DNA from: Candidatus Methylomirabilis oxygeniifera
Lineage (GTDB): Bacteria; Methylomirabilota; Methylomirabilia; Methylomirabilales; Methylomirabilaceae
Direction: 5' to 3'
Assembly: GCA_000091165.1 (NCBI GenBank)
Contig: FP565575.1
Location: 780,001-812,000, forward strand
DNA: 32,000 bases
Shown here: one piece after another, positions 4,425 to 31,899 of the stretch
Layout: every line of letters begins with the position of its first letter
How positions within the stretch are numbered: the first letter of the stretch is position 1
Notes under the pieces: model-generated
Database searches by the model: none
What the model saw: the letters and a program-made list of their open reading frames with translations, nothing else
Told to the model about the DNA's origin: nothing
Translations under genes and position numbers: made by a program

Positions 4425-4670
4425 ATGCTTGCCGAGTATATCGATAAGGCGATGGAACAAGCTGTGTACGAGATCATCGAGGATGAGCGAACCTACTGGG
4501 GCGAGATTCCTGGTCTTCAAGGCGTGTGGGCACGTCATGCCACCTTGGAGGGATGCCGGCGTGAACTCCGCGAGACCGTGAGCGACTGGATTGCCTTGCG
4601 TTTGAGACTGGGTCTGCCGATTCCCGTCTTGGCCGGCATTGATTTGAATCAAATAACACAAGCTGCGTGA
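4425..4670 (+). CDS. hicB: HicB-like (UPF0150) type II antitoxin, short form
   Basis: 81 aa, ...YEIIEDERTYWGEIPGLQGVWARHATLEGCRRELRETVSDWI..., typical of the HicB N-terminal fold. It directly abuts the HicA-like ORF. Confidence 0.7.
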   Translation: MLAEYIDKAMEQAVYEIIEDERTYWGEIPGLQGVWARHATLEGCRRELRETVSDWIALRLRLGLPIPVLAGIDLNQITQAA

Positions 4671-5215: not shown

Positions 5216-6172
5216 ATGTCAAGCGACCAACCGCTCGTAACAATCGTTCTCCCGGCTCACAACCGGAGTAATGTCCTGGCATACGCCATTCGCTCGGTCC
5301 TCTACCAGACCTATCCGAACTTCGAGCTGATCGTTGCTGGGGACGGCTGCACCGACGATACCGCGGCCGTTGTTGAAGGATTCAAGGACTCACGGATTAC
5401 CTGGCTCGACCTTCCCAAGGGGTTCGGCTATGGGTATGAAAACCGAAACCGCGCATTGGAACGCGCCAGGGGTGAGTTGATCGCCTATCAGACGCACGAT
5501 GACCTCTGGTTCCCCGACCACCTGTCGTTGCTCGTTACGACCATCCTACGAGATGAGGGTGAGGTTGTGTATTCTCTTCCGATCCATGTTCTGCAGGATG
5601 GGACGGTATTTCAGCATCCATGCGACGTGCGACTTCCCTACTATCGGGAGATGCTGCTCAACGGAGATAATCGCATCGCGAGTATCAACCTCATGCACAG
5701 GCTGAGTGTCGTACGCGACGTGGGTGGCTGGGACGGACGACTCGCACGAAACGGCGTAATGGAGTACTGGCAGCGAATGCTCAAGATGGGAAAGAAGTTC
5801 TCCTACGTCCCAGTCCCAACGGCCTTGGGCTTCTTTGCCTCTCTTCGACCTCATGCGTATCGGGATCGCGATGAGCACGAACAGCGGGCCTACTACGAGC
5901 AGATCGTGGCCGACCCCGGTTGGGTGCACAACTTTCGACAACGGATGGCGGGAGATCTGGGGCGGAGATTTATGGAGCAGGAGGCCAATCTGGCGGCGCG
6001 ACTGGCCGTAATTAACGAATTGACGACTGCCGTACGCGCCTTCGAAGTAGACCGCACGGCGTTACTGAATAGATTAGCTCAGCTTGAGAACAGTGTGCCC
6101 TTCAGGCCCTTCGAATTGTTCCGGAACGTGGCTCGGCGCCTGGCGAATAGGCGTCAGGAGACAACAGGATAG
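5216..6172 (+). CDS. family 2 glycosyltransferase with C-terminal coiled coil
   Basis: [42 protein letters not shown] and HDD (DxD-like) motifs. The C-terminal tail is heptad-like ([38 protein letters not shown]). Confidence 0.85.
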
Positions 6173-6225
6173 GCTGGAGGGATGAAGAAAGACCGGATAT
6201 TCGCCGGACTGATTGCGATCAAGCG

Positions 6226-6798
6226 ATGAACGCGAACGGTTACGGGTTCACCTTGTGGTTTACCGGCCTTTCCGGATCGGGCAAGACGACCTTGGCTCGT
6301 CTGGTGGAACGGGAATTGCTGACCAGAAAACTGAAAGTTGAAGTGCTGGATGGCGATGTGGTTCGCCAGAATCTCTCAAAGGGGTTAGGCTTCAGCAAGG
6401 AAGACCGCGATACGAATATCAGGCGGATCGGCTTTGTCTGTAACCTGCTTGGCCGTAATGGGGTCATCGCCATCGCTGCGGCTATATCGCCCTATCGCAC
6501 TGTACGCGACCAGGTCCGCGCCTCTCAAGACAGCGGCCGCTTCGTCGAGGTGTTCCTCGATTGTCCGATCGAGGCGTGTATTCAACGCGATGTCAAGTCG
6601 CTGTATCGGAAAGCCCTCACCGGCCAGGTTGAGAACTTTACCGGAGTATCCGATCCATATGAGCCTCCTGAACACCCCGAGGTTGTTCTCCACACTGACC
6701 AGGAGACCGAGGAGCAGAGTACAGCAAAGATTTTGGCGTGGTTGGAAGAGAGGGGCTATGTGCTACCCAACGTGATGACGGATGCCTCACATCAATAA
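6226..6798 (+). CDS. cysC: adenylylsulfate (APS) kinase, makes PAPS
   Basis: P-loop in [46 protein letters not shown] and AAISPYR motifs. The 190-aa length is typical of stand-alone CysC. Confidence 0.9.
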
Positions 6799-6852
6799 TG
6801 CACTATGTTTTGAAGACTCACAGAATCGCCTTAGGCAGCGAGTGGTATTCTT

Positions 6853-9072
6853 ATGATTCTAGATAAGGAAGAACTCATATTCATACATATTCCACGCACA
6901 GGTGGGACGAGCATAGAGGTAGCACTCGCCGGAAAAGACTGGTGGCTTATTGATCCAGAAACAAAGCATCTCAGCGCAAGTATGTCCAGGAAACTTGTTG
7001 GAGAGAAGAAATGGAGTCGGTACTTTAAGTTCGCAATAGTAAGGAATCCTTTCGATAGAATAATTTCAATGTATGCAACTGGTTGGTGGTGGAAGGCGGG
7101 CTCCAATTTCAATAACACCCGCCCCCCGTCACTCAGAGAGTTCGTTGAAAGGCTTTCTCTGCATCCGTCTGAAAAGTCCAACTCGAAGTTTTACTACCAG
7201 ATTTTGGATGAACAACTGAATTTTGTTGGTAGGTATGAGAGTCTGGAAGTAGATTTCCAGTACATATGCAATCGTGTCGGGTTATCGGTTAAAACGCTGC
7301 CTCACGTTGAAAGAAGAGTAAGAGAGCATTACTCCGTTTACTACGATGAGGAAACGGCTGATAGGGTTGCTCAAATATATAAAACAGATATTGCATTGTA
7401 TGGGTATAGTTTCGATAGAAGATTCAATTTTGATCCAGAGGCAATCAAAAGATTAGGGGCCGTGATCGAACAGCGGGAAGCCCTCGAGGCTGTGACGGCC
7501 GACCGTGATAGTTGGGAGGCCCGCTACCAGGGGCTTGCGACCGAAGCAGAGCGCCGACGGGAGGCGCTGGAGGCTGTGACGGCCGACCGCGATGCCTGGG
7601 AGACCCGCTACCAGGGGCTTGCGACCGAGGCAGAGCGCCGACGGGAAGCCCTCGAGGCTGTGACGGCCGACCGTGATAGTTGGGAGGCCCGCTACCAGGG
7701 GCTTGCGACCGAGGCAGAGCGCCGACGGGAGGCGCTGGAGGCTGTGGCGACACAATTGGATGCGGTGACTCAAAGGTTTTCCTCAACAATTCCGGAAGAG
7801 CCAGGGACATCGGATGAACAGGGTGCGGAAAGTCAACTTGCGCCAAAGCCCGCAGCTCCTCCCTACGCCACTGTGACCCCGGTAGGTCCCCTGGTGTCGA
7901 TTATCACGCCGTCGTATAACCAGGGCCGTTTTATCGAAGAAACCATCCTGAGTGTCCTGACCCAGGATTACCCCAACATTGAGTATATTGTCATGGATGG
8001 CGGCTCAACCGACAACACCTTGGATATCCTGAAGAAGTACGAAGGGCGGCTCACCTGGATCTCCGAGGCTGATCGGGGCCAGTCGCACGCCATCAACAAG
8101 GGCTTCCAAATGGCGAAGGGCGAGGTCCTGGCCTGGCTGAACTCCGATGACACCTACCTTCCGGGAGCGATCAGTAAAGTCGTACAACATCTCCATACCC
8201 ACCCCGAGGCGATGATGGTGTACGGGGAGGGATACCTCATCGACGAGCAGAGCCGTATCACGAGGCGGTTTCCGTATACAGAGGCGTTCAACCTGTGGAA
8301 GCTTATCTATCTGTGGGATAACATTCTTCAGCAGGCGGCTTTCTTTCGACGCCAGGTCTTCGATCGTATCGATCTGCTGGACGAGAACCTTCACTACGGA
8401 ATGGATTGGGATTTGTGGATCAGGATCGGCAAGAAGTTCCGAGTCGATTACATCCCGGAGTATCTGGGCAATCTTCGCGAATACTCGGAAGCCAAGACCT
8501 TTTCCGGGGGCACTACGCGCTTTAATGAGCTGGTATCCTTGATGAGGCGGCATGGGAATCGGCGATTCCCTCCAGGATATTTTACCTATGGCTTCGGTAC
8601 CTACAACAGACGTGTGTTTGGCCGCCTGGCGCATCAATATCCACACGCGTACCGGTTCTTATTTTCGATGCCACGCCTGTTAGGCCAGCGCGTCTGCAGC
8701 CTGATAACACGCTATCTGGTGAACCATTCCCAGGGGTACTACAGTGACGGTTGGGCCTCGCCGAAAGCCCATTTCTCGCTGGCGAATCTCGGCCAGGTGT
8801 CTTCCCTGAGACTTGAGGGCGAACTTCCCAACTTGCGGCCCGACTACCGGACCGCGATCCGCGCCAAGCTCAACGGCCGCCCCATTGGAGATCCGATTAC
8901 CGTCGTTCCGGGAAACTTTACACTGGAATGGGTCATCCCGCAGGAGATGCGATCCTCAGACGTATTTGAGGTGACACTGCTCTCAACTCGCTGGCATCGC
9001 CCCTCACTGACCGGCGCTAATGCCGATCGCCGCAGGTTAGCCTACCGAGTGACGCGGATTTCTGCCGAGTAG
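6853..9072 (+). CDS. multidomain sulfotransferase (family 2) / tandem-repeat coiled coil / GT2 glycosyltransferase / C-terminal DGW module
   Basis: N-terminal domain: PAPS 5'-PSB motif IHIPRTGGTS, RNPFDRIISMY and GRYESLEVDF. Residues about 208-300: three 28-aa repeats. GT2 domain: VSIITPSYNQGRFIEETILSVLTQDYPNIEYIVMDGGSTDNT ... LNSDD. C-terminal module: YYSDGWASPKAHFSL ... ADRRRLAYRVTRI. Confidence 0.85.
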   Translation: MILDKEELIFIHIPRTGGTSIEVALAGKDWWLIDPETKHLSASMSRKLVGEKKWSRYFKFAIVRNPFDRIISMYATGWWWKAGSNFNNTRPPSLREFVERLSLHPSEKSNSKFYYQILDEQLNFVGRYESLEVDFQYICNRVGLSVKTLPHVERRVREHYSVYYDEETADRVAQIYKTDIALYGYSFDRRFNFDPEAIKRLGAVIEQREALEAVTADRDSWEARYQGLATEAERRREALEAVTADRDAWETRYQGLATEAERRREALEAVTADRDSWEARYQGLATEAERRREALEAVATQLDAVTQRFSSTIPEEPGTSDEQGAESQLAPKPAAPPYATVTPVGPLVSIITPSYNQGRFIEETILSVLTQDYPNIEYIVMDGGSTDNTLDILKKYEGRLTWISEADRGQSHAINKGFQMAKGEVLAWLNSDDTYLPGAISKVVQHLHTHPEAMMVYGEGYLIDEQSRITRRFPYTEAFNLWKLIYLWDNILQQAAFFRRQVFDRIDLLDENLHYGMDWDLWIRIGKKFRVDYIPEYLGNLREYSEAKTFSGGTTRFNELVSLMRRHGNRRFPPGYFTYGFGTYNRRVFGRLAHQYPHAYRFLFSMPRLLGQRVCSLITRYLVNHSQGYYSDGWASPKAHFSLANLGQVSSLRLEGELPNLRPDYRTAIRAKLNGRPIGDPITVVPGNFTLEWVIPQEMRSSDVFEVTLLSTRWHRPSLTGANADRRRLAYRVTRISAE
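7474..7746 (+). repeat. in-frame tandem repeat, 84-bp unit x about 3.25 (copies at 7474, 7558, 7642, partial 7726)
   Basis: Copies 1 and 3 differ at one synonymous base (gaa/gag). Copy 2 and partial copy 4 share an alternative codon set (cgggaggcgctggag), so the latest duplication unit is 168 bp. Encodes REALEAVTADRD(S/A)WE(A/T)RYQGLATEAERR. Confidence 0.9.
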
Positions 9073-9179
9073 GCGATTGCTCACACGGCGCATTGCTATG
9101 AACGAGTCCGGAAGCAATTCGGCGGGAGACGCACGCCGCAGCACTGCGAGCGGAAACGAGCCAAAGAGAGGTGTGTGTG

Positions 9180-10439
9180 ATGACAGGGAGTCCTGTGATC
9201 TCAACCCATAATGTCGTTCGAGAACGTATGGATACTTTTATCGTCGTATGCGATAGGGACATTAAGCTACTACGACATTTCTTCTTGAGTTACGAACTCT
9301 TTTTCAGATCACCCGGAAGGATTTATCTCTTTATCTCAAGGAAAGATAAACCTCTGTTAGATCTTGTGCGAAAACCCAAGAATCTTGTGGTGTTGTACAA
9401 AGATGATGTGCCGGACTTGGGCGAAGATGATTTCCGTAATCAGATGTACTTGAAAATGATTGCGGACCGCTATGTGGAAACGGACTGGTTCTGGGTTCCA
9501 GATGCGGACTATCTTATTTGCTCTCCAATTCAAGCCTCTGACTTTATGAGGAGCAAAGTCCATGGCCCCTTGTGGTTTTATCGGAATTGGGATGGTGGTC
9601 CGCCAGAACAATCTTGGCGACAAGGATCCGAGCGGTTTTTGAGAGAAACGATCCCTTTTCTTTTCATGGATGCGGCAGAATATATTATGAATAAAAATAT
9701 ACTGGTCAATTTTAGAGAACTCCATGATCTGGACGACCTGCTGGTTCCTTCTCTAAAGACAAGTGAATTTATTGTGTATGGCGCCTTTGCCCACAGGTTG
9801 TATCACGATTACTATAAATGGATCGATCTTGACAGTGACTCACAAACAAGCTTGGCCTACAAGGTGAACCAGCGCCCACCAACGTATTGCGAACTGGATG
9901 AAGACGTCAATTTATCTTCGATGGGTAGCGCAAAGTATGCGGTTTTCTGGTCTCACTGGGATAAATCCGAGCAGAAAATGGTGGAATTTCTCATTGACGC
10001 ACAGATTCGTGAATTCGGGGAAGTGCGAGTTGAGCCCGACACTCAACCCTTATACCTTGCACTCAAAACTGGCAGCTTATCACGCGATGACTTTATTGCT
10101 ATTGGCGGAGCATATTCGGACGGTTGGGTAAAAACGGAGTCGGCGTTCCATCTTACGGTTCCTATGCCTTGCGAACTTGTACTCAAGCTTGAGGTGCCGT
10201 TGTGTTTGGCGCATAACACAACGAGGTTATCTCTTCAAGCAGACGACACGGTTCGAAATTTTACGTTCACCAAGAGACATCATATGTTGCGCATTCCCCT
10301 TAAGTCAGACATCGATAACATTGTTCGCTTGAATTTCTTCGGGGGGATAGCAGAACCTAACGGTGGGCGAAGATTGTATGCTCAACTTACCCAAATGTTT
10401 GTACAGCCGTATGGCTGGAATCCACTGCGGCGAACCTAA
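9180..10439 (+). CDS. hypothetical protein, possible GT-A-like (DxD) transferase, with C-terminal DGW module
   Basis: Long ORF in AT-richer DNA. The ATG at 9180 lies about 9 nt after AAAGAGAGG; the track GTG at 9171 is an alternative. Contains FIVVCDRD... and WFWVPDADYLI (DxD-like). C-terminus: YSDGWVKTESAFHL ... GGRRLYAQL. The catalytic assignment is weak. Confidence 0.6.
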   Translation: MTGSPVISTHNVVRERMDTFIVVCDRDIKLLRHFFLSYELFFRSPGRIYLFISRKDKPLLDLVRKPKNLVVLYKDDVPDLGEDDFRNQMYLKMIADRYVETDWFWVPDADYLICSPIQASDFMRSKVHGPLWFYRNWDGGPPEQSWRQGSERFLRETIPFLFMDAAEYIMNKNILVNFRELHDLDDLLVPSLKTSEFIVYGAFAHRLYHDYYKWIDLDSDSQTSLAYKVNQRPPTYCELDEDVNLSSMGSAKYAVFWSHWDKSEQKMVEFLIDAQIREFGEVRVEPDTQPLYLALKTGSLSRDDFIAIGGAYSDGWVKTESAFHLTVPMPCELVLKLEVPLCLAHNTTRLSLQADDTVRNFTFTKRHHMLRIPLKSDIDNIVRLNFFGGIAEPNGGRRLYAQLTQMFVQPYGWNPLRRT

Positions 10440-10451
10440 AGGATTCTAAAT

Positions 10452-13259
10452 ATGATGGCATTTTCGATAACACTTCTTTTATTTCTGTATTTCGCGATCG
10501 TTGGTTATGCGATGTTACAAGCATTTCCATCAAGGCTTAAGCCTGCGCTCAACTTACTCATTGCCCCAGCAATCGGTCTGTGCGCGACACTATTGCCGGT
10601 GTTCTACCTTAACCGGTTCGGTATGCCGGTGAAGAGTTTTTCAATATACCTTACTTTAGCTCTTCTTACATTGTCGGCACTTGTCTTATTCAACAATAGA
10701 CCGATCATAGCAAGGCGAAGAGTTGTGGTCGTTTCGGTTTTAGGTCTTCTGATATTGCTGCTGACCTCATGGCCGATGCTGTTCTACGGATTGGATTGGG
10801 TGGCCGTAGGTAATGATGATATGGCGAACTACTGCCTTGCGGCGCAACGGTTCTATCATGAGGGTTTTTTTGATAAGCCGGACATTCTACATATTAAAAA
10901 TGGGTCAAATTACTCGCAGGCATATTGGTTTATGCATGTTGCAGGCGGAGTAAGGCCAGGCAGTGAATTGATGCTTGCATGGGCATGGAGTGTCACCGGC
11001 ATTGAGGCGCCCAGAATCTTTATGTCGGTAATCTCCACATTGCATCTTTGTCTGGCTTTTGCTGTTTCGGGTCTGGCGGCAATGGCAACAAAAAGAAGAC
11101 GGGTATGGCAGATTGCATTGCTGCTATTTGCCATAAACCCACTATCGTCTTGGGGAGTGCATCAACAATTAATTGGTCAGGTTGGAGGCCTCCTGTTGCT
11201 GGTTGTGTCAATAAGCTTACTGTTTCGCGACGCCAGACAATCTACTCCCGGCACAACCATCAGAGGCTTAGTTGTGCCGGTAATGACGATTGGCGGATTG
11301 TTAATCTGGTACCCGGAAGGGTTACCCTTTTTGGGATTGAGCTGGATCATTTTCTTGATTGCAAGCGTGTTGTTTTTGAGGCGTTCCATTCGACCGATTG
11401 TGGTCTATGCCCTAATCCTTGGGGCGCTTGTGATTCTGGCGTTACCTCAATACGGTATCAGCGCCGTTAAATTCATGTTGGCTCAATCGAGATCGGTTGG
11501 AGCAGGAGTAAAAGGTGACCCGACCGGATTATTGTTTCCATATTTTTTGGTTCCAACTGGAATCGCCGCTTTCTGGGGACTTATTCCCGTTCATAGAGGT
11601 ATACCTTCTGAGCCTATAGCCTCCTCGGTTTTTATCGTGGCGCTCACACTTATGTTGTTGCTTGGAAGGCTGCTAGTCAGAGGTATAAAGGAGAAGAACC
11701 CCAGCGCTTGCGTGTTGGTCGTCATGTGCATATTGGCGTTGGCTCTTTACGGAAACATGAACGACTTCGGCTTATATAAGCTTGCCATGTATGCGCAGCC
11801 GTTCGTCATCGCTCTACTGGCATCCTCGTTTCATCAGATCACCCTCAGGCCAATGTGGGTGTTATATCTACTCCTGGTTGTCGTGCTACCCCCTCAGATA
11901 GTTAGCCAATTTTCCTATACGTACAGATCAACAGGAGAAGCACCTGGTAGCGCAGTTGAAATCCAGCACGGATCATCAAAAAAGGTGCTGAGCCAGCTTA
12001 AGACTTTCTTTGAGCGGCTTACCGTAGAATCTTCCAACAAGAACGAACAATTTGTATCGCCGGTTGATAATGTTGTTCTCGCAAAATTGATGGCATTCTA
12101 TTCTCGTGGGTTACAAATCATCTTCACCTCACGAGACTTTTTTGGAGGGATAGCCTCGTTTGCGGATACGCCGGTTCTTTATTCCGAGTATTCTAAGGAC
12201 CGGATGAGAGTCGAATCTTCTTTATATACTGGAAGGAAAATATACCTGGATGGCCAGGAAGTAAATTTCTTTGTGCCATCCGTGCTCAATTCAAGGGCGG
12301 AAGGATTTAGAACTATTGTTGCGTGCAACCAGGGAGCTATTTCGTCGCCTTGTAGTGGTGCGTTACACATTTTAGATTCTAAAGAGACGAGCCCCGTGAG
12401 CTTTATACATTCAGATATTGGCAGCCACTACTACTCGGGCAATAGAAAGAATGCTTCGTTCTTTCAGGCTGAATCGGATATATATTTTCCGGGTGTGTTT
12501 CATTCTTTTGGACGTTATGCGTTAATTCAGGCGCTCGGCGATATTGATAATGCGAGATTCGTATTTGATCTGAGCGGAACGCTTCAGAAGAAACGAGGCG
12601 CGTCGCTCGCAACTGTTACTATCAGCACCGAAAAGACCTCTGCGCCTTTCCGATTTGTTGGCAGAGGATCCGGCCGAATATATAGTGATCCCATTGATCT
12701 GAAGTCATTTGAATACCTGTTGATAGATATGAATATCGTTCCGGAGACATTTCGTAGCAAGAAAACGTTACTCAGATTTGTGTACGGTAGTGACGTATTA
12801 ATCGATATGAGACGTCTTACTCACTTTGTTCGAAAATTTGGAGTACTGGCGAATACGGAGTACCAGGCGCTGAAGCCGCCTCATGCGCTCTCCAAATTCC
12901 CCGCGAATCTCGCTGATCCTGGGCTGGAATATTCCGGCCTCTACGAAGACGGCTGGATTTCCGAACGCTCGTTTTTCGTACTCACCCCCAAGCCGGATAC
13001 TCGCTATCTGGTGATTAAGGGTATGGTGCCGCAGATTGACGCACCAGACTTTCGCAACACGCTAACGGTGAGTATTGATGGTCGGGAAGTCGTCAAACAG
13101 CCCCTTGGCCTTGGTACCTTCGAAGTCAAGGCGCCGGTCTCGGTAAACGGCCAACGTCACCGAATAGATCTTGCCTTCGACCGCTACCAGGTGCTACCTG
13201 GCGCGGATGGACGTCCGACGAGCGGTAAGGTTGCATTCATTGGTTTCACGAGGGATTGA
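10452..13259 (+). CDS. large polytopic membrane protein (about 14 TM) with soluble C-terminal half; candidate GT-C-type glycosyltransferase or glycan polymerase
   Basis: Residues 1 to about 480 form consecutive hydrophobic helices. There is an acidic loop motif after TM4 (GLDWVAVGNDDMANY), as in GT-C first-loop DxD/DD motifs. The soluble domain is about 450 aa and ends with the YEDGWISERSFFVL ... module. AAGGA sits 9 nt upstream of the ATG. Confidence 0.75.
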   Translation: MMAFSITLLLFLYFAIVGYAMLQAFPSRLKPALNLLIAPAIGLCATLLPVFYLNRFGMPVKSFSIYLTLALLTLSALVLFNNRPIIARRRVVVVSVLGLLILLLTSWPMLFYGLDWVAVGNDDMANYCLAAQRFYHEGFFDKPDILHIKNGSNYSQAYWFMHVAGGVRPGSELMLAWAWSVTGIEAPRIFMSVISTLHLCLAFAVSGLAAMATKRRRVWQIALLLFAINPLSSWGVHQQLIGQVGGLLLLVVSISLLFRDARQSTPGTTIRGLVVPVMTIGGLLIWYPEGLPFLGLSWIIFLIASVLFLRRSIRPIVVYALILGALVILALPQYGISAVKFMLAQSRSVGAGVKGDPTGLLFPYFLVPTGIAAFWGLIPVHRGIPSEPIASSVFIVALTLMLLLGRLLVRGIKEKNPSACVLVVMCILALALYGNMNDFGLYKLAMYAQPFVIALLASSFHQITLRPMWVLYLLLVVVLPPQIVSQFSYTYRSTGEAPGSAVEIQHGSSKKVLSQLKTFFERLTVESSNKNEQFVSPVDNVVLAKLMAFYSRGLQIIFTSRDFFGGIASFADTPVLYSEYSKDRMRVESSLYTGRKIYLDGQEVNFFVPSVLNSRAEGFRTIVACNQGAISSPCSGALHILDSKETSPVSFIHSDIGSHYYSGNRKNASFFQAESDIYFPGVFHSFGRYALIQALGDIDNARFVFDLSGTLQKKRGASLATVTISTEKTSAPFRFVGRGSGRIYSDPIDLKSFEYLLIDMNIVPETFRSKKTLLRFVYGSDVLIDMRRLTHFVRKFGVLANTEYQALKPPHALSKFPANLADPGLEYSGLYEDGWISERSFFVLTPKPDTRYLVIKGMVPQIDAPDFRNTLTVSIDGREVVKQPLGLGTFEVKAPVSVNGQRHRIDLAFDRYQVLPGADGRPTSGKVAFIGFTRD

Positions 13260-13260
13260 T

Positions 13261-13998
13261 ATGAACACAACCACACTTTCGAATTCTTGGCCCAAGTCGC
13301 TTCCGGTACTGAGTGAAGAGCAAGAACGGATTCGTAAAGATTTCATGAATCATTGGCTCGAAGTCTTACCAAATCGCTATGGGTTGATTGAGAAATTCAA
13401 TCACCAATATCCGCTTCGGACGTTAGCCGCTGGAGTCAGAACCCTCGAGATCGGTGCTGGTCTAGGCGCACACCTGCGTTTTGAAAATCTGGAGATACAG
13501 CGAGAATATGTCGCACTTGAATTGCAACCCGAATTGGCAAAGATTATAGATGCCTCCTATCCAGCGGTCCGTGTGGCTGTCGCGGATTGCCAGGAACAGA
13601 TTGATTTCTCAGATGGCCACTTTGATCGGATACTGGCCATTCACGTACTGGAGCACCTGCCCAACCTACCGAAAGCGCTGAACCAGATGCAGCGTTTATT
13701 GAGTCCGACTGGTTTCTTTTCCGTCGTTATTCCCTGTGAGGGTGGGCTGGCGTATAGGATGGCGCGAAATATTTCAGCCCGCCGGATTTTCGAAAAACGT
13801 TATAAGCAGAGTTATGATTGGTTCGTGGCATGCGAACATATCAACTTACCCGATGAGATTCTTTCTGAGCTGCGTTCCCGTTTCTCGATCATCCACCAAG
13901 CGTATTGGCCTCTCGGGATTCCGATTGTCAACTTCAATCTCGCTATAGGGTTAACATTGACGCATCTCACTCCTCCCAAGGCAACGAGTTGCAAATGA
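13261..13998 (+). CDS. class I SAM-dependent methyltransferase
   Basis: Motif I VRTLEIGAGLGAH and post-I/II FDRILAIHVLEHLPN...LLSPTGFFSVVIP. The ATG lies 1 nt after the upstream TGA, so the longer track ORF from 13171 is unlikely. Confidence 0.85.
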   Translation: MNTTTLSNSWPKSLPVLSEEQERIRKDFMNHWLEVLPNRYGLIEKFNHQYPLRTLAAGVRTLEIGAGLGAHLRFENLEIQREYVALELQPELAKIIDASYPAVRVAVADCQEQIDFSDGHFDRILAIHVLEHLPNLPKALNQMQRLLSPTGFFSVVIPCEGGLAYRMARNISARRIFEKRYKQSYDWFVACEHINLPDEILSELRSRFSIIHQAYWPLGIPIVNFNLAIGLTLTHLTPPKATSCK

Positions 13999-14936
13999 CC
14001 TCAGATAAGCCAGACCTCTCGGTTGTGGTGCCGGTATATAAAGAAGAGGCGAATGTCCCGCCTTTTCTCGAGCGGCTTGAGGCAGTCCTCAAGCGAATGG
14101 GGGGGTCCTATGAGATTCTCTTCTGTCTTGATCCATCTCCGGATAGGACAGAAGAGGTGATCATGCGGGCTATTGATCGTAATCCGAACATTAAGCTCCT
14201 TGTATTTTCCCGGCGATTCGGCCAGCCGGCGGCCACGATGGCAGGTCTCCTGATGTGCCATGGAGCGAGCTGCGCGGTGATTGATGTGGACTTGCAGGAT
14301 CCTCCCGAATTGATCGGCGACATGTACAAGAAGCTCCTGGATGGGTACGAGGTGGTATATGCCAAGAGACGATCGCGCAAAGGCGAGACCCTGATAAAAC
14401 GCATAGTGGCGAGAATGGGATACTGGCTGATTGCCAGGCTGAGCGACGTGGAGATCCCGCGTGATACGGGTGATTTCCGCATCATGACGCGCCGGGTGAT
14501 CGAGGAGTTGCGACGTTTGAATGAGATGCACGGGTTTCTACGTGGGCTGGTGGCATATGTGGGGTTTAGGCAGACGTTCATAGAGTACGATCGCGACGAA
14601 CGGGCTCATGGGCAGGGTAATTACAATCGCTTTGTGGGTTCGCTGAAGATCGGGCTCAACGGTCTCATTAGCTTCAGCAGCAAGCCTTTGCAGTTGATGT
14701 CCATCACCGGCGCTCTGTTCGCCGGATTCAGTTTTCTGTTGGGTGCCTGGTATGTTTTACAGAAGCTGATCGGCGTTGCGCTTACGCCCGGACTGTCCAC
14801 CACCGTACTGGTCGTCTCGTTTTTTGCAGGAATACAGCTTCTATCTCTGGGACTCATGGGAGAGTACATCGGACGGATCTACGACGAGGTCAAGCGTCGC
14901 CCGATGTTTATCATCGATCGAAAAATCAATTTCTGA
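13995..14936 (+). CDS. GT2 polyprenyl-phosphate glycosyltransferase (GtrB / ArnC / DPM1-like)
   Basis: LSVVVPVYKEEANV, VIDVDLQDPPE and RDTGDFRIM motifs, plus two C-terminal TM helices (LMSITGALFAGFSFLLGAWYVL and TTVLVVSFFAGIQLLSLGLMGEY), the classic GtrB architecture. The ATGA overlap with the methyltransferase stop suggests translational coupling. Confidence 0.85.
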   Translation: MTSDKPDLSVVVPVYKEEANVPPFLERLEAVLKRMGGSYEILFCLDPSPDRTEEVIMRAIDRNPNIKLLVFSRRFGQPAATMAGLLMCHGASCAVIDVDLQDPPELIGDMYKKLLDGYEVVYAKRRSRKGETLIKRIVARMGYWLIARLSDVEIPRDTGDFRIMTRRVIEELRRLNEMHGFLRGLVAYVGFRQTFIEYDRDERAHGQGNYNRFVGSLKIGLNGLISFSSKPLQLMSITGALFAGFSFLLGAWYVLQKLIGVALTPGLSTTVLVVSFFAGIQLLSLGLMGEYIGRIYDEVKRRPMFIIDRKINF

Positions 14937-18330: not shown

Positions 18331-19314
18331 ATGATCATCACGCGAAGTCCGTTACGAATTTCGCTGGGTGGAGGTGGAACCGACCTGCCATCCTACTACT
18401 GCGAACACAGCGGGTTTGTGATCGCCGCCGCTATTGACAGATATGTGTATATTACGTTGCATCATACCTTCGTGCAGGAGCTGATTATCAAGTACTCCCG
18501 GATGGAGCGGGTCCGGACGATCGATGAGGTGCAGCATCCCATTATCCGTGAGGCGCTGAGGCTCACAGAGGTTGGCGCGCCGTACCTGGAAATTACGAGC
18601 ATGGCTGATATCCCGGCCGGTACCGGCCTGGGTTCTTCAGGGAGCTTTACGACGGCACTGTTGAAGGCGCTTCACGCGCTGCGAAAGAATCTTATTCACC
18701 CGCAGGAACTGGCCGAGCAGGCTTGCCATATCGAAATCGATGTCCTCGAAGAACCGGTCGGTAAGCAGGATCAATACATCGCCGCCTATGGCGGGATCAC
18801 CTGTTTCCGCTTCCTGCCCAACCATCAGGTGGAGGCGTGGCCGCTTAAGATCGATACGGATACCTTATACAATCTGGAAGACAATCTGCTGATGTTCTTT
18901 ACCGGCTATTCGCGATCCGCGTCGACAGTGCTCCAGGAGCAGGATACAAAAAGCAAGCAGAACGATAAGGAGATGATTGCGAACCTGCATTTCGTCAAGG
19001 AGCTGGGCCGGGAAAGCAAAGAGGCGCTGGAGACCGGCAAGCTGGAGCGGTTTGCCGAGCTGATGAACGTCCATTGGGAGCACAAGAAGCAACGTTCAGC
19101 CAACATGAGCAATAACCACATCGACCAGTGGTACCAGTTGGCGCGCGGCAACGGCGCGTTGGGAGGCAAGCTGATTGGAGCCGGCGGCGGCGGCTTCTTG
19201 ATCTTTTACGCGGACGACAAGGTGCGCCTCCGACGGGCGATGCGGGAAGCCGGTTTGCAGGAGGTTCGCTTCCGCTTCGACTTTGAAGGCACAAAGCTGA
19301 TCGCGCAATCATGA
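18331..19314 (+). CDS. hddA: GHMP-family D-glycero-alpha-D-manno-heptose 7-phosphate kinase
   Basis: MIITRSPLRISLGGGGTDLPSYY start typical of HddA-type GHMP kinases, GHMP motif PAGTGLGSSGS and C-terminal GAGGGGF. Context with gmhA, gmhB and the nucleotidyltransferase supports the call. Confidence 0.8.
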   Translation: MIITRSPLRISLGGGGTDLPSYYCEHSGFVIAAAIDRYVYITLHHTFVQELIIKYSRMERVRTIDEVQHPIIREALRLTEVGAPYLEITSMADIPAGTGLGSSGSFTTALLKALHALRKNLIHPQELAEQACHIEIDVLEEPVGKQDQYIAAYGGITCFRFLPNHQVEAWPLKIDTDTLYNLEDNLLMFFTGYSRSASTVLQEQDTKSKQNDKEMIANLHFVKELGRESKEALETGKLERFAELMNVHWEHKKQRSANMSNNHIDQWYQLARGNGALGGKLIGAGGGGFLIFYADDKVRLRRAMREAGLQEVRFRFDFEGTKLIAQS

Positions 19315-20027
19315 GCCCTGGGATGCTCCCGGTCGTCATTCTTGCAGGTGGCGTTGCCACACGGCTGCGGCCCCTGACAGAGACCATCCCCAAAGCCATG
19401 GTCGATGTAAACGGAGAGCCGTTTATCGCCCACCAACTGCGTTTGTTGCGTGCCAACGGGATTGAGCGGGTGATTATCTGCGCGGGATATCTGGGTGAGG
19501 TGGTTCAGGCGTATGTCGGCGATGGTGCGCGCTTTGGATTACAAGCGGCGTTCTCTTTCGATGGATCCCGCCTCTTGGGAACAGGCGGAGCCGTCAAAAA
19601 GGCGTTGCCGTTGCTGGGTGATGCCTTCTTCGTCCTATATGGCGATTCCTACTTACCCTGTGATTATCGTGCCGTGCAGACTGCATTCACGTCGAGCGGC
19701 AGATTGTCGCTCATGACAGTGTTTCGAAATGACGGTCACTGGGATACGAGCAATGTTGAGTTTGTCAATGGACGAGTTGTCGCCTATAATAAACAACATC
19801 GTACGCCAGGAATGCACTACATCGACTACGGGCTTGGGATATTTACGCACTCTGCCTTCGAGATTGTTCCAGATGGCCGATCCTATGATCTGGCTGCATT
19901 GTATCAAGATCTTCTGACAAAGGGTGAATTGGCAGCTTATGAGGTGGGCCAACGCTTTTATGAGATTGGATCGTTAGAGGGTTTAGAGGAAACCCGGCGT
20001 TACTTGGCAGAGCAACCCTGCACCTGA
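19311..20027 (+). CDS. hddC: sugar-1-phosphate nucleotidyltransferase, likely D-glycero-alpha-D-manno-heptose 1-phosphate guanylyltransferase
   Basis: VVILAGGVATRLRPLTETIPKAMV (G-x-G-t-R-l motif), VLYGDSY. ATGA overlap with hddA. Confidence 0.75.
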   Translation: MSPGMLPVVILAGGVATRLRPLTETIPKAMVDVNGEPFIAHQLRLLRANGIERVIICAGYLGEVVQAYVGDGARFGLQAAFSFDGSRLLGTGGAVKKALPLLGDAFFVLYGDSYLPCDYRAVQTAFTSSGRLSLMTVFRNDGHWDTSNVEFVNGRVVAYNKQHRTPGMHYIDYGLGIFTHSAFEIVPDGRSYDLAALYQDLLTKGELAAYEVGQRFYEIGSLEGLEETRRYLAEQPCT

Positions 20028-20041
20028 AGAAGGGGTCATGT

Positions 20042-20638
20042 ATGAGTTTTGTGCAACAGTATCTCTCAGAGGCGGGTCAGATCCTGCCGCAACTTGATAC
20101 GGACGCCATTGATCGAGTCGTGGCCTTACTGGCCGAGACCAGAGCAAGAGGCGGACGGCTGTTCATCCTGGGGGTCGGTGGAAGCGCGGCCAACGCCTCG
20201 CATGCAGTCAATGATTTTCGAAAGCTCGTCGGGTTGGAAACCTATACCCCGACAGATAATGTCTCAGAGCTAACCGCGCGCACAAACGATGAGGGATGGG
20301 CGAGCGTATTCGAGGGGTGGCTGCGTATCAGCCGGGTGCAATCGGATGATCTGGTGCTGGTGTTCTCGGTGGGAGGCGGCAACGTCGAGAACAATATCAG
20401 TCCGAATCTGGTCAGTGCGCTGCAATATGCGAAGCGTGTCGGCGCACGGGTCATAGGAGTGGTTGGGCGGGATGGCGGCTACACGGCGCAAGTCGCAGAT
20501 GCCTGCGTGATTGTCCCAACGGTCAATCCTGCTCACGTGACCCCACATACGGAAGCCTTTCAGGCCGTGATCTGGCATTTGCTGGTCTCGCATCCACAGC
20601 TCAAGGCGGCGGAAACGAAGTGGGAATCTGTTCGATGA
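20042..20638 (+). CDS. gmhA: SIS-domain sedoheptulose 7-phosphate isomerase
   Basis: GGRLFILGVGGSAANASHAVNDF and VFSVGGGN motifs. The 198-aa size is typical of GmhA. Confidence 0.8.
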   Translation: MSFVQQYLSEAGQILPQLDTDAIDRVVALLAETRARGGRLFILGVGGSAANASHAVNDFRKLVGLETYTPTDNVSELTARTNDEGWASVFEGWLRISRVQSDDLVLVFSVGGGNVENNISPNLVSALQYAKRVGARVIGVVGRDGGYTAQVADACVIVPTVNPAHVTPHTEAFQAVIWHLLVSHPQLKAAETKWESVR

Positions 20639-21198
20639 AGGAGCAATTGCGTCGAGCTGTATTCCTGGACCGCGACGGGGTTCTCAATCGTGCTATTGTG
20701 AAAAACGGAACCCCTCATCCGCCTGCCACTCTCGCGGAGTTAGAGATCGTGCCGGATGCGTCCAAGGCGCTCGAGGCTCTTAGGGCTGCGGGATTTTTGC
20801 TGATCGGTGTCACGAATCAACCCGACGTTGCGCGAGGAACACAGCGACGGGAGGTGGTAGAAGCCATCAACGCTGCGCTGCTTGCAGTGTTGCCCCTGCA
20901 GGAAATGCTGGTTTGCTACCACGACGATCAGGACGGTTGTGACTGTCGTAAGCCTCTGCCTGGCCTTTTGATTCAGGCCGCTGCCAGATATGGGATCGAT
21001 CTGCCGTTGAGCTTCATGATCGGTGATCGCTGGAAAGATGTTGAAACCGGACGTCGAGCCGGCTGTACGACCGTTCTGATAGGCTGCGGTTATGAGGAGA
21101 TGAGGCCTGACATCGCATCGGATTATACCGCGCATTCGCTTTCCGAGGCAGCAGTGCGGATTCTTAGTCGCTCCAATGCGGAGGGTGGAACCGTATGA
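20635..21198 (+). CDS. gmhB: HAD-IIIA D,D-heptose 1,7-bisphosphate phosphatase
   Basis: AVFLDRDGVLN (DxD nucleophile), GVTNQPDVARG, Zn/Cys motif CYHDDQDGCDCRKPLPG and MIGDRWKDVETG. ATG 20635 overlaps the gmhA stop (ATGA); the track start at 20620 is less likely. Confidence 0.8.
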   Translation: MKEQLRRAVFLDRDGVLNRAIVKNGTPHPPATLAELEIVPDASKALEALRAAGFLLIGVTNQPDVARGTQRREVVEAINAALLAVLPLQEMLVCYHDDQDGCDCRKPLPGLLIQAAARYGIDLPLSFMIGDRWKDVETGRRAGCTTVLIGCGYEEMRPDIASDYTAHSLSEAAVRILSRSNAEGGTV

Positions 21199-21911
21199 AA
21201 TCCGTATCCGAATTAAGGGTCAAAATATTCGCAGACGGCGCGGACAAGACCGGCATCCTGGAAATGTACCGCAACCCGCTGATCAAAGGTTTCACCACCA
21301 ATCCGACGCTGATGCGTAAAGCCGGAGTCTCGGACTATCAGGCCTTTGCGTTTGACATCCTGCGAGCTATCCCCGATCGTCCCATTTCTTTCGAGGTCTT
21401 CTCAGACGACTTCACAGAGATGGCCCGTCAGGCCCGTAAGATCGCAGGATGGGGCGAGAACGTCTATGTGAAGATCCCCGTCACAAACACCCAGGGCGAG
21501 TCGTCCGCAAAGCTGGTTTATGATCTCGCGCGAGAAGGGGTAAAACTGAACGTGACAGCGCTGACAGCGCTGGATCAGGTGCGCGAGATGAGCGCCGCTC
21601 TGGCGGGAGGACCTCCGGCTATTGTGTCGGTTTTCGCCGGACGTGTCGCGGATACCGGCAGAGACCCCGTGCCGCATATGGCGGAGGCCGTGGAGTGTGT
21701 GCGTTCGTACCGGAATATTGAATTGATCTGGGCCAGCCCACGCGAGCTGCTCAATATCATTCAAGCCGACGCCATTGGCTGTCACATCATTACTGTGACA
21801 CAAGATATTTTGAAGAAATTGCACCTCATCGGCAAGGACCTGCATGAGTACTCACTCGACACTGTCAAGATGTTTCACGATGATGCCAGGAACGTCGGCT
21901 ATACGCTGTAG
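21195..21911 (+). CDS. short-form transaldolase / fructose-6-phosphate aldolase family protein
   Basis: KIFADGAD, GFTTNPTL, Schiff-base lysine context NVYVKIPVT and SVFAGR. ATGA overlap with the gmhB stop. Confidence 0.8.
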   Translation: MKSVSELRVKIFADGADKTGILEMYRNPLIKGFTTNPTLMRKAGVSDYQAFAFDILRAIPDRPISFEVFSDDFTEMARQARKIAGWGENVYVKIPVTNTQGESSAKLVYDLAREGVKLNVTALTALDQVREMSAALAGGPPAIVSVFAGRVADTGRDPVPHMAEAVECVRSYRNIELIWASPRELLNIIQADAIGCHIITVTQDILKKLHLIGKDLHEYSLDTVKMFHDDARNVGYTL

Positions 21912-22016
21912 AACCCGGATGGTCCCGCCTGTCGGAGAAGGGACCAGCCCGGTACGAGTAGGATTTACGGAGCTACCGCAGGTGGCTCCATCGGACGCGT
22001 CACGAGGAGCACTCAC

Positions 22017-31784: not shown

Positions 31785-31813
31785 TTGACAGCGAGGGAAT
31801 GCCATCATATCAT
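31785..31813 (+). promoter_or_regulatory. sigma70-like promoter (TTGACA - 17 nt - TATCAT)
   Basis: Perfect -35 at 31785-31790, a 17-nt spacer, and a -10 matching 5 of 6 at 31808-31813. It lies about 85 nt upstream of the partial CDS. Confidence 0.45.
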
Positions 31814-31899
31814 TGCATTGTTAGCGTCAGTGAATATTCGTATAACTCTTGCTTTCGTTATTAGTAAGACTCAAGATCGCGAGAGAGAGGAAGGCCACC

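What the first reader, a model, noticed from the sequence alone, without database searches (positions are those of the whole stretch)
6226..9072. Dedicated PAPS supply next to a sulfotransferase-GT2 fusion implies a sulfated cell-surface glycan
A stand-alone APS kinase (cysC) lies about 55 nt upstream of a protein whose N-terminal 195 aa carry the family 2 sulfotransferase motifs (HIPRTGGTS, RNPFDRIIS). That domain is covalently linked to a GT2 domain. No sulfate adenylyltransferase (sat or cysDN) is in the window, so only the PAPS-forming step is duplicated locally. Sulfated bacterial polysaccharides are comparatively uncommon. I do not recognise a sulfotransferase-GT2 single polypeptide as a characterised architecture.
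Basis: partly seen in the sequence, partly recalled or inferred. Interest (0 to 1): 0.7.

Follow-up and report, generated by a model that had tools for sequence, protein, structure and literature searches.

The report
Sulfotransferase on a coiled-coil glycosyltransferase
In the methane-oxidising bacterium Candidatus Methylomirabilis oxyfera, a gene that makes the sulfate donor PAPS sits next to a modular enzyme joining a sulfotransferase to a sugar-adding domain through a long coiled coil, so the cell probably makes a sulfated surface polysaccharide, but no chemistry confirms this yet.

Summary
cysC (6226-6798) lies 54 nt upstream of a 739-aa ORF (6853-9072) carrying Sulfotransfer_2 (aa 2-186) and GT2 (aa 349-547). 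No sat or cysDN is in the window.

- The two domains are separated by a ~100-aa heptad coiled coil built from 3.2 copies of a 28-aa repeat.
- The protein ends in a CBM-like beta-sandwich.
- Wzm/Wzt and a second sulfotransferase lie just upstream of the window.
- Close relatives keep cysC and the coiled-coil/GT2/CBM scaffold but carry other N-terminal heads (Sulfotransfer_1, FkbM methyltransferase, GT4).
- The sulfotransferase head is a low-GC cassette (42% vs 54-66%).

This layout matches the coiled-coil terminator/polymerase proteins of ABC-transporter-dependent glycan assembly (WbbB, Klebsiella O7 ORF6). The head could therefore add a chain-ending sulfate cap, although internal sulfation is about as likely.

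Two caveats apply. The fusion depends on one G in a G4 run (7456-7459): with one G fewer, the region reads as two translationally coupled genes, which matches the 536-aa protein in the public record. Wzt also lacks the cap-reading CBM.

Verdict: real, and a new variant of a known kind. Moderate interest.

The parts
5216..6172 (+). GT2 glycosyltransferase (318 aa) directly upstream of cysC. Its C-terminal ~80 aa look helical or coiled-coil by eye.
   Evidence: PF00535 E=3.5e-23. The coiled-coil impression comes from reading the sequence only and was not tested.
6226..6798 (+). Stand-alone APS kinase CysC (190 aa), which makes PAPS from APS.
   Evidence: PF01583 206 bits. NCBIfam adenylyl-sulfate kinase 266 bits against a cutoff of 244. 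The DNA is 80-81% conserved at the same position in M. limnetica L031 and JGI L033.
6853..9072 (+). 739-aa modular ORF: sulfotransferase head, coiled coil, Pro-rich linker, GT2, helix, CBM-like domain.
   Evidence: The exact product is called in two other assemblies.
6853..7461 (+). Sulfotransfer_2 head (aa 1-203). It is a low-GC cassette.
   Evidence: PF03567 54 bits. AF2 pLDDT 94.6. The top 50 PDB fold matches are all sulfotransferases. GC is 42% and GC3 43%, against 54-66% in the rest of the ORF. DNA matches the stand-alone ST gene in L001 at 73% but matches nothing in the syntenic loci L031 and L033.
7456..7459 (+). G4 run at the junction. With one G fewer, a 203-aa stand-alone ST ends at a TGA that overlaps GTG 7462 (GTGA).
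   Evidence: In-silico deletion. The public 536-aa protein starts at this GTG. The closest homologue, P0121, is 203 aa and ends at this position.
7462..7767 (+). Coiled coil (aa 204 to about 305).
   Evidence: 75% of a/d positions are hydrophobic against 28% elsewhere. There is a strong 3.5-residue periodicity and no Pro. NCBIfam SMC coiled-coil hits cover aa 204-321.
7474..7746 (+). Tandem repeat of 84 nt x 3.2 copies. Each unit encodes 28 aa, which is 4 heptads.
   Evidence: TRF score 462 with 89% matches. Units are listed.
7768..7887 (+). Pro/Ser/Glu-rich flexible linker (aa 306-345).
   Evidence: Composition: 8 Pro in 48 aa.
7888..8607 (+). GT2 (GT-A) catalytic domain with an NSDD (DxD-like) motif.
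   Evidence: PF00535 105.6 bits. The closest solved sequences are chondroitin synthase K4CP, SpsA and heparosan synthase.
8734..9069 (+). C-terminal CBM-like beta-sandwich (aa 628-739), preceded by a low-confidence helix at aa 586-627.
   Evidence: AF2 pLDDT is above 90 over the sandwich. Foldseek matches are the BcsB carbohydrate-binding domain, CBM6/36/4 and a lectin.
9171..10439 (+). Unknown protein (349-422 aa depending on the start chosen) with the same C-terminal 'G.Y.DGW' module.
   Evidence: The M. limnetica orthologue is 71% identical and has a weak DUF6492 hit.
10452..13259 (+). 935-aa protein, judged multi-pass membrane protein from its sequence, with the same C-terminal module.
   Evidence: No Pfam or NCBIfam match.

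Best explanation
The window comes from Candidatus Methylomirabilis oxyfera (NC10 phylum). It lies inside a large surface-glycan cluster served by a Wzm/Wzt ABC transporter.

Proposed mechanism:
- CysC converts APS, made elsewhere in the genome, into PAPS.
- The next gene encodes a modular assembly enzyme. Its GT2 domain adds sugar to a lipid-linked glycan at the cytoplasmic face of the membrane.
- Its N-terminal PAPS-dependent sulfotransferase sulfates that same glycan.
- The two catalytic modules are held apart by a ~100-residue (about 14-15 nm) heptad coiled coil that probably oligomerises.
- A C-terminal CBM-like beta-sandwich, shared with the two downstream proteins, probably holds the glycan or the complex.

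What is shown: the domain identities, the intact PAPS motifs, the coiled-coil periodicity, conserved cysC synteny, cassette-like replacement of the head, and the transporter context.

What is inferred: that the glycan is sulfated, and where the sulfate goes. By analogy with WbbB, WbdD and Klebsiella O7 ORF6, the modifying head at the far end of the coiled coil terminates the chain. I rate a terminal sulfate cap at about 0.3-0.35, and internal decoration at about the same. The statement that ST, GT2 and CysC act together on a sulfated surface glycan I rate at about 0.75.
For: Domains.

Sulfotransferase head:
- R64, N65, P66, S72 and E129 are invariant; H12, T16, G18, T19, S20 and H39 are near-invariant.
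- AF2 pLDDT is 94.6.
- The top 50 PDB fold matches are all sulfotransferases, including HS 2-O- and 6-O-sulfotransferases.
- The profile aligns RNPxDRxxS with the SULT motif RNPRDVLVS.

Coiled coil.

Transporter and second sulfotransferase: Wzm (ABC2_membrane), Wzt (ABC_tran) and a PF00685/PF13469 protein lie within 10 kb upstream of the window.

Synteny:
- M. limnetica: cysC (87% aa), then a 259-aa gene overlapping by 4 nt, then the coiled-coil/GT2 gene.
- JGI L033: cysC (81%), then an ST1 protein whose C-terminal part has weak coiled-coil-family hits and holds the repeat motif, then the ST1/coiled-coil/GT2 fusion P0005.
- Acidobacteria L008: Wzm, cysC, a 499-aa protein with a long tandem coiled coil, GT2, then a GT2-CBM orthologue.

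Head swapping: on a scaffold 72-85% identical, the heads are ST2, ST1, FkbM methyltransferase or GT4.

Cassette boundaries: GC content and DNA homology both break at about 6772 and 7461-7474.

Closest stand-alone ST: P0121 directly follows a Wzt that has a weak Wzt_C domain.

[quoted passage not shown] PAPS genes plus sulfotransferases are called a hallmark of sulfated-polysaccharide clusters (PMC11641403).
Against: - No chemical, transcript or proteomic data were available. Sulfation is inferred from sequence alone.
- The M. oxyfera Wzt is only 264 aa, so it lacks the cap-recognising CBM that accompanies every characterised terminator system.
- Only cysC is local; sat, cysDN and cysQ are absent from the window.
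- The fusion depends on one G in a G4 run, and the reference record annotates the GT2 protein without the head.
- All 71 close relatives of the head are stand-alone proteins, as are most of the 150 best representatives.
- Forty distant relatives with at least 6 kb of sequence showed no cysC, Wzm or Wzt nearby by tblastn.
- Fold matches to solved sulfotransferases have only moderate TM-scores (0.3-0.5).
- The low GC of the head shows recent acquisition, so selection for the fused state is unproven.
Confidence: 0.6

Rival explanations
1. Internal decoration. The sulfotransferase sulfates residues along the chain as the GT2 builds it, as in heparan or chondroitin sulfate synthesis. The coiled coil only oligomerises or scaffolds the complex, and there is no capping or ruler function.
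For: Wzt is 264 aa with no CBM, so no cap-reading export checkpoint is apparent. The known sulfated bacterial capsules read here are described as sulfated polysaccharides, and rhamnose sulfation is proposed for one (PMC11641403 and PMC11766843). The cluster has a second sulfotransferase. P0266 is an ST2-GT2 fusion with no room for a coiled coil.
Against: The head-coiled coil-GT layout, with heads that swap between sulfotransferase, methyltransferase and GT4, is the pattern described for terminators (PMC11231755). A 14-15 nm spacer is an odd design for an enzyme that must act next to the polymerase active site.
Confidence: 0.3
2. Two coupled genes rather than a fusion. The true or ancestral state is a 203-aa stand-alone sulfotransferase whose TGA overlaps the GTG start of a 536-aa coiled-coil/GT2 protein. 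The single ORF would then be a homopolymer sequencing error or a very recent +1 G mutation of no functional importance. The two proteins would still work in the same pathway.
For: Removing one G from 7456-7459 gives exactly this arrangement. The closest homologue is 203 aa and ends at the same position. M. limnetica has an ATGA overlap at the equivalent site. The reference record starts at GTG 7462. All close relatives of the head are stand-alone.
Against: The G4 version is identical in the window and in two further assemblies, and NCBI annotates 739 aa in the MAG. A four-base run is short for a consensus-level error. Orthologous scaffolds do carry covalently fused heads: P0005 ST1, P0006 methyltransferase, P0003 and P0004 GT4. 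The truncated reference start can be explained by a gene finder rejecting the low-GC head.
Confidence: 0.2
3. The head is a recently acquired, non-functional or untranslated remnant, and cysC serves ordinary sulfur assimilation. No sulfated glycan is made.
For: The head has foreign composition (GC3 43%). The reference annotation omits it. No sat or cysDN is nearby.
Against: The head has a full-length Pfam match starting at an ATG, with no stops or frameshifts. All invariant and near-invariant family residues are kept and the fold is confident. cysC is conserved at this exact position next to this scaffold in three Methylomirabilis-lineage loci and one Acidobacteria locus. A second sulfotransferase is in the cluster.
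Confidence: 0.07

Closest known systems
Klebsiella pneumoniae O7 ORF6 (PMC11231755)
   Same: One polypeptide with an N-terminal non-glycosyl modifying head, an extended coiled coil and C-terminal GT2 module(s). It works in a Wzm/Wzt-dependent pathway. An extra CBM domain is also reported in its model.
   Different: Its head is a methyltransferase-kinase that adds methyl-phosphate, whereas here the head is a PAPS sulfotransferase. ORF6 has two GT2 modules, and this protein has one. The O7 Wzt is described as exporting only terminated chains, as in the CBM-bearing systems. Here Wzt is 264 aa. No sequence relationship was tested beyond shared Pfam families.
WbbB of K. pneumoniae O12 / Raoultella terrigena (as described in PMC11231755)
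   Same: [quoted passage not shown]
   Different: The WbbB head is a beta-Kdo glycosyltransferase and its polymerase has two GT modules. Its cap is read by a Wzt CBM. No sulfate chemistry is involved.
WbdD of E. coli O9a / K. pneumoniae O3 (PMC3482155, PMC11231755)
   Same: A coiled coil whose length sets chain length, with a small-group transferase at its end. The split versions seen in M. limnetica and in L008 resemble the WbdD/WbdA separation.
   Different: In WbdD the polymerase WbdA is a separate protein, and the head is a kinase plus a methyltransferase.
Sulfated capsule clusters of Vibrio sp. KMM 8419 and Cobetia marina KMM 1449 (PMC11641403, PMC11766843)
   Same: A glycan cluster combining PAPS-synthesis genes, sulfotransferases, glycosyltransferases and an ABC transporter. 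In those organisms the product is a chemically confirmed sulfated polysaccharide.
   Different: Those clusters carry cysN, cysD and cysC, and the Cobetia cluster also cysQ. They use KpsMT-type export. Their sulfotransferases are described as separate genes, and no coiled-coil fusion is reported.
Heparan sulfate 2-O- and 6-O-sulfotransferases (PDB 3f5f, 4ndz, 5t03)
   Same: They appear among the best structural matches of the head, alongside cytosolic SULTs, and show the same PAPS-binding fold.
   Different: Only 12-16% identity. The head is a minimal 203-aa version. Those enzymes are eukaryotic Golgi enzymes acting on finished chains.

Membership tests
PAPS-dependent sulfotransferase (Pfam PF03567 Sulfotransfer_2) | Profile match above the curated threshold over the whole domain | tested here: met
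   54 bits against a gathering score of 22; aa 2-186 match profile positions 5-252 of 252.
PAPS-dependent sulfotransferase (Pfam PF03567 Sulfotransfer_2) | 5'-phosphosulfate-binding loop (P-K/R-x-G-x-T/S) | tested here: met
   P14-R15-T16-G17-G18-T19-S20 is present. T16, G18, T19 and S20 are at least 90% conserved across 60 relatives.
PAPS-dependent sulfotransferase (Pfam PF03567 Sulfotransfer_2) | 3'-phosphate-binding motif (R-N-P-x-D-x-x-x-S) | tested here: met
   R64, N65, P66 and S72 are invariant. The profile aligns this stretch with RNPRDVLVS of solved SULTs.
PAPS-dependent sulfotransferase (Pfam PF03567 Sulfotransfer_2) | Sulfotransferase fold | tested here: met
   AF2 pLDDT 94.6 and pTM 0.90. 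The top 50 Foldseek PDB hits are all sulfotransferases, most solved with PAP or PAPS bound, at probability 0.54-1.0 and TM 0.3-0.5.
PAPS-dependent sulfotransferase (Pfam PF03567 Sulfotransfer_2) | PAPS-dependent sulfate transfer to a carbohydrate acceptor | not testable with these tools
   Needs an enzyme assay.
APS kinase (CysC) | Profile match above curated thresholds, and a P-loop | tested here: met
   PF01583 206 bits. NF002059 266 bits against 244, and TIGR00455 229 bits against 139. GLSGSGKTT can be read in the sequence.
GT2 glycosyltransferase (GT-A fold) | Profile match above threshold, and a DxD-type motif | tested here: met
   PF00535 105.6 bits against 23.3. 'LNSDD' can be read in the sequence. 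Nearest solved sequences are the K4CP GT2 module and SpsA.
Coiled-coil terminator/polymerase proteins of ABC-transporter-dependent glycan assembly (WbbB, O7 ORF6, WbdD) | Extended coiled coil separating a modifying head from the GT module(s) or the polymerase docking site | tested here: met
   About 100 aa in one heptad register, with a/d positions 75% hydrophobic against 28% elsewhere. Built from a 28-aa tandem repeat. SMC-type hits. The oligomeric state was not modelled.
Coiled-coil terminator/polymerase proteins of ABC-transporter-dependent glycan assembly (WbbB, O7 ORF6, WbdD) | Wzm/Wzt ABC transporter in the same cluster | tested here: met
   ABC2_membrane (275 aa) and ABC_tran genes lie about 8.5-9.5 kb upstream of the window start (L026 1-1104). 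Wzm homologues also occur in the related loci L007, L008, L010, L016 and L019.
Coiled-coil terminator/polymerase proteins of ABC-transporter-dependent glycan assembly (WbbB, O7 ORF6, WbdD) | Wzt carries a C-terminal carbohydrate-binding module that recognises the cap | tested here: not met
   The Wzt product is 264 aa, the size of a nucleotide-binding domain alone. By contrast, the Wzt next to the closest stand-alone ST has a weak Wzt_C hit (PF14524, E=5e-4).
Coiled-coil terminator/polymerase proteins of ABC-transporter-dependent glycan assembly (WbbB, O7 ORF6, WbdD) | The head adds a non-reducing terminal cap, and coiled-coil length sets chain length | not testable with these tools
   Needs the glycan structure and coiled-coil length mutants.
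Sulfated-polysaccharide gene cluster (PAPS genes plus sulfotransferases in a glycan cluster; PMC11641403) | [quoted passage not shown] | tested here: inconclusive
   cysC and two sulfotransferases are present. ATP sulfurylase and cysQ are absent from the window and the 10-kb upstream flank. The rest of the genome was not seen.

The most novel reading that the evidence does not exclude
The protein is a self-contained polymerase/terminator in which sulfate is the chain-ending cap. That would be a termination chemistry not reported among the characterised systems, which use methyl, methyl-phosphate, Kdo or pyruvate. The ruler would be a 28-aa (4-heptad) tandem repeat that can grow or shrink by whole units without losing register. 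Heads would be exchanged as cassettes between close relatives (ST2, ST1, FkbM methyltransferase, GT4) on a conserved coiled-coil/GT2/CBM scaffold, giving strain-specific cap chemistry. Because Wzt has no CBM, the CBM-like domains on the assembly proteins themselves might take over cap or chain recognition.
Probability: 0.3. Interest if true: 0.7.

Novelty: new variant of a known kind. Interest (0 to 1): 0.5.

Why it matters
Bacterial polysaccharide sulfotransferases are barely characterised, and confirmed sulfated bacterial glycans are few. This locus offers a compact, testable unit: PAPS supply plus a sulfotransferase tethered by a coiled coil to its partner glycosyltransferase. The organism, the nitrite-dependent methane oxidiser M. 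oxyfera, has a surface that has hardly been studied chemically.

If the head caps chains, the coiled-coil molecular-ruler paradigm would gain a new chemistry. It would also provide a natural series of head-swapped orthologues for engineering defined glycan termini. If the head only decorates chains, the fusion still pairs a sulfotransferase with its likely acceptor-building enzyme, and identifying that pairing is usually the hard step in assigning specificity.

The single-G dependence of the fusion also illustrates how domain fusions can arise from translationally coupled genes.

Tried and rejected
- Independent copies of the junction. An exact pattern allowing GGG to GGGGG in JGI metagenomes gave 0 hits. 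The genome-contig scan returned neither M. oxyfera nor any ST2+GT2 fusion. Read-level confirmation of the G4 run was therefore not possible.
- Context of 80 distant relatives of the head from metagenomes (27-38% identity). tblastn found no cysC, Wzm or Wzt near any of them, and GT2 in only two. The link to PAPS supply and ABC export therefore belongs to this scaffold's lineage, not to the whole small-ST2 family.
- The M. limnetica 259-aa gene between cysC and the coiled-coil/GT2 gene. It belongs to a widespread family of about 258 aa annotated 'hypothetical'. It has a near-invariant FARSGGT motif and invariant R130 and S138, plus a weak PF13469 hit (E=0.004). However, hhalign against the ST2 family (probability below 2%) and PDB profile searches gave nothing. 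I do not claim it is a sulfotransferase.
- Literature. No paper in the searchable library combines sulfotransferase, Wzt and coiled-coil, or sulfotransferase with ABC-dependent chain termination, or Methylomirabilis with a relevant sulfotransferase. The key bioinformatic census of terminators (Mann, Kimber, Whitfield, Glycobiology 2019) and the 2020 JBC review are not held. From memory, the census abstract says it predicted 'new chemistries'. I could not check whether sulfotransferase heads were among them.
- Promoter and terminator scans around the operon were at chance level.
- Sequence profile of the C-terminal module against the PDB found nothing. Only the fold search was informative.


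Full report
**1. What is there**

The region holds two same-strand ORFs separated by 54 nt: 6226-6798 (190 aa) and 6853-9072 (739 aa).
- The first is an APS kinase: PF01583 at 206 bits and NCBIfam adenylyl-sulfate kinase at 266 bits against a cutoff of 244.
- The second carries Sulfotransfer_2 at aa 2-186 (54 bits, gathering score 22) and GT2 families at aa 348-547 (PF00535, 105.6 bits).
- Pfam scans of all larger ORFs, and several small ones, found no ATP sulfurylase or CysD/CysN in the window.

**2. Organism and annotation**

The C-terminal 536 aa are 100% identical to CBE67989.1, 'Glycosyl transferase, family 2 (modular protein)', of Candidatus Methylomirabilis oxyfera, on a 2.75-Mb contig. 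That record starts at GTG 7462 and omits the sulfotransferase part. The full 739-aa product is annotated as KAB2960842.1 in the MAG GCA_009026205.1 and is also called in ENA ERZ24907703. Both assemblies are base-for-base identical to the window over 8.2-11.7 kb.

**3. The sulfotransferase head is intact**

All 71 relatives found by word-indexed search are stand-alone proteins of 184-310 aa.
- In a 60-sequence alignment, R64, N65, P66, S72 and E129 are invariant. H12, T16, G18, T19, S20 and H39 are at least 90% conserved. These cover the 5'-phosphosulfate loop (PRTGGTS) and the 3'-phosphate motif (RNPxDRxxS).
- The family profile aligns the 3'-phosphate motif with RNPRDVLVS of solved cytosolic sulfotransferases.
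- An AlphaFold2 model has mean pLDDT 94.6. Its 50 best PDB matches are all sulfotransferases, most solved with PAP or PAPS bound, including heparan sulfate 2-O- and 6-O-sulfotransferases. TM-scores are only 0.3-0.5 because the head is a minimal 203-aa version.

**4.

- Residues 204 to about 305 form a coiled coil. In one register, 75% of a/d positions are hydrophobic against 28% elsewhere. Hydrophobicity has a sharp 3.5-residue period and there is no proline. NCBIfam SMC coiled-coil models hit aa 204-321.
- The coiled coil is built from 3.2 copies of an 84-nt repeat. Each unit encodes 28 aa, exactly four heptads, so copy-number change would keep the register.
- A Pro-rich linker (aa 306-345) precedes the GT2 domain. 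The nearest solved sequences to the GT2 domain are the GT2 module of chondroitin synthase K4CP, SpsA and heparosan synthase.
- The last ~110 aa fold as a beta-sandwich with pLDDT above 90. It matches the BcsB carbohydrate-binding domain, CBM6/36/4 and a lectin.
- The same 'G.Y.DGW ... D.RRLAY' module ends the next two proteins, ORF 9171-10439 and the 935-aa protein at 10452-13259, which I judge from its sequence to be a membrane protein.

**5. Context**

Downstream genes in the window:
- a methyltransferase, a PgfS/ArnC-like GT2, and epimerase and reductase genes;
- a complete GDP-heptose set (GHMP kinase, nucleotidyltransferase, SIS isomerase, HAD phosphatase) with a transaldolase;
- GDP-mannose 4,6-dehydratase.

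The 10 kb upstream of the window hold Wzt (ABC_tran, 264 aa), Wzm (ABC2_membrane), rml-like genes, a GT2, a second sulfotransferase (PF00685/PF13469, 312 aa) and a GT4. This is an ABC-transporter-dependent surface-glycan cluster with two sulfotransferases and one APS kinase.

**6. Comparative evidence**

Orthologues of the coiled-coil/GT2/CBM scaffold (72-85% identical) carry different N-terminal heads:
- Sulfotransfer_1 in P0005 (828 aa);
- FkbM methyltransferase in P0006;
- GT4 in P0003 and P0004;
- none in M. limnetica P0002.

Synteny around the scaffold:
- In M. limnetica the order is cysC (87% aa), a 259-aa gene overlapping the next by 4 nt, then the scaffold, then the ORF-9171 orthologue.
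- In JGI contig L033 the order is methyltransferase, cysC (81%), a 365-aa ST1 protein, then P0005. The C-terminal part of the ST1 protein gives weak hits to coiled-coil families and holds the same repeat motif.
- At the DNA level, cysC (6200-6771) and everything from 7474 onward align at about 80-82% with both loci. The head (6851-7445) aligns with neither, but aligns at 73% with a stand-alone sulfotransferase gene in L001.
- Head GC is 42% (GC3 43%), against 66% for the linker and GC3 of 64-73% for cysC and GT2. The head is therefore a cassette dropped between conserved flanks.
- The L001 sulfotransferase directly follows a Wzt that has a weak Wzt_C domain.
- In Acidobacteria locus L008, Wzm, cysC (49%), a 499-aa protein with a ~290-aa tandem-repeat coiled coil, a GT2 and a GT2-CBM orthologue lie together.

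**7. Mechanism**

Characterised ABC-transporter-dependent systems place a chain-terminating enzyme at the far end of a coiled-coil ruler. That enzyme is either on the same polypeptide as the polymerising GTs (WbbB, Klebsiella O7 ORF6) or on a partner protein (WbdD) (PMC11231755). The M. oxyfera protein has this layout with a sulfotransferase as its head.

I conclude with about 0.75 confidence that CysC, the head and the GT2 act on one glycan that becomes sulfated. Where the sulfate goes is open. A terminal cap (about 0.3-0.35) fits the architecture and the head swapping. Internal decoration (about 0.3) fits the CBM-less 264-aa Wzt.

**8. The fusion hangs on one base**

The junction reads ...TTA GGG GCC GTG ATC..., with a G4 run at 7456-7459. 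Removing one G gives a 203-aa sulfotransferase ending KRLGP. Its TGA stop then overlaps GTG 7462 as GTGA.
- That product has the same length as the closest homologue, P0121, which ends RLSG at this position.
- The start codon is the one used in the reference record.
- The overlap is of the same kind as the ATGA overlap in M. limnetica.

The ancestral state was almost certainly two translationally coupled genes. The present single ORF is identical in all three assemblies and has precedents in fused orthologues, so I rate it real at about 0.8. Raw reads or a junction peptide are needed to settle it. The functional inference survives either way.

**9. How unusual it is**

An exhaustive profile search found 65,439 cluster representatives of this small sulfotransferase family at E up to 0.001. 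Nearly all of the best 150 are stand-alone proteins of about 200 aa. Two of those 150 are independent ST2+GT2 fusions: P0266 (ST2 then GT2, no coiled coil) and P0309 (GT2 ... ST2). P0005 is an ST1 fusion on the same scaffold.

The architecture is therefore rare but not unique. I found no characterised example and no paper linking sulfotransferases to coiled-coil termination. I could not read the 2019 terminator census.

**10. Verdict**

It is best filed as a new variant of the coiled-coil modular assembly enzymes, with a sulfotransferase head, and not as a categorically new system. Interest is moderate (0.5). It would rise if sulfate proves to be a chain-ending cap.

Noticed in passing
window 7456-7459: A G4 homopolymer sits exactly at the domain junction. 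With one G fewer, the 739-aa ORF becomes a 203-aa gene plus a 536-aa gene with a GTGA stop/start overlap.
   Followed up: partly
window 8734-9069, 10086-10436, 12912-13256: Three consecutive proteins end in the same ~110-aa CBM-like beta-sandwich, with motifs 'G.Y.DGW' and 'D.RRLAY'. By eye, the GT4 upstream of the window (L026 8382-9941) has a similar-looking tail ('EDWGTWTDG ... RSLGIGL').
   Followed up: partly
window 5216-6172: The GT2 upstream of cysC has a C-terminal ~80 aa that look like a coiled coil. It could pair with the coiled coil of the 739-aa protein.
   Followed up: no
window 10452-13259 and 13905-14936: A 935-aa protein that looks like a multi-pass membrane protein, with no family match, lies near a PgfS/ArnC-like polyprenyl-phosphate glycosyltransferase (231 bits to PgfS, below the cutoff). 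The pairing resembles systems that add side-chain sugars on the periplasmic side.
   Followed up: no
window 18331-23057: GHMP kinase, nucleotidyltransferase, SIS isomerase, HAD phosphatase and transaldolase genes are followed by GDP-mannose 4,6-dehydratase. This set looks like a GDP-heptose (possibly 6-deoxyheptose) pathway.
   Followed up: no
L031 9225-10004 (M. limnetica) and L007 8859-9689: A widespread uncharacterised ~258-aa family occupies the slot between cysC and the scaffold. It has a near-invariant FARSGGT motif and invariant R130 and S138, which are sulfotransferase-like. Profile and PDB comparisons were not significant.
   Followed up: yes
L033 1436-2533: A stand-alone Sulfotransfer_1 protein carries, in its C-terminal part, the same 'EAERRREALEAV' repeat motif as the neighbouring fusion protein. 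This suggests mixed coiled-coil bundles.
   Followed up: partly
window 9001-14000: This stretch has low GC (46-50%) compared with 53-64% in the flanking 1-kb windows. Together with the low-GC head, it suggests a mosaic, laterally acquired middle of the cluster.
   Followed up: partly
window 26332-27057: ComB-type 2-phosphosulfolactate phosphatase (PF04029, E=1e-69), another sulfur-compound enzyme. It is outside the glycan genes.
   Followed up: no
window 4425-4670, 23157-23717, 24210-24584, 28708-29424; L026 5348-6175: Toxin-antitoxin or defence-type genes are scattered through the cluster: UPF0150/HicA, two Uma2 genes, HEPN with Pol-beta nucleotidyltransferase, and HepT-like.
   Followed up: no
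window 30850-32000: The last ~1.15 kb of the window has no ORF longer than 90 aa in any frame.
   Followed up: no
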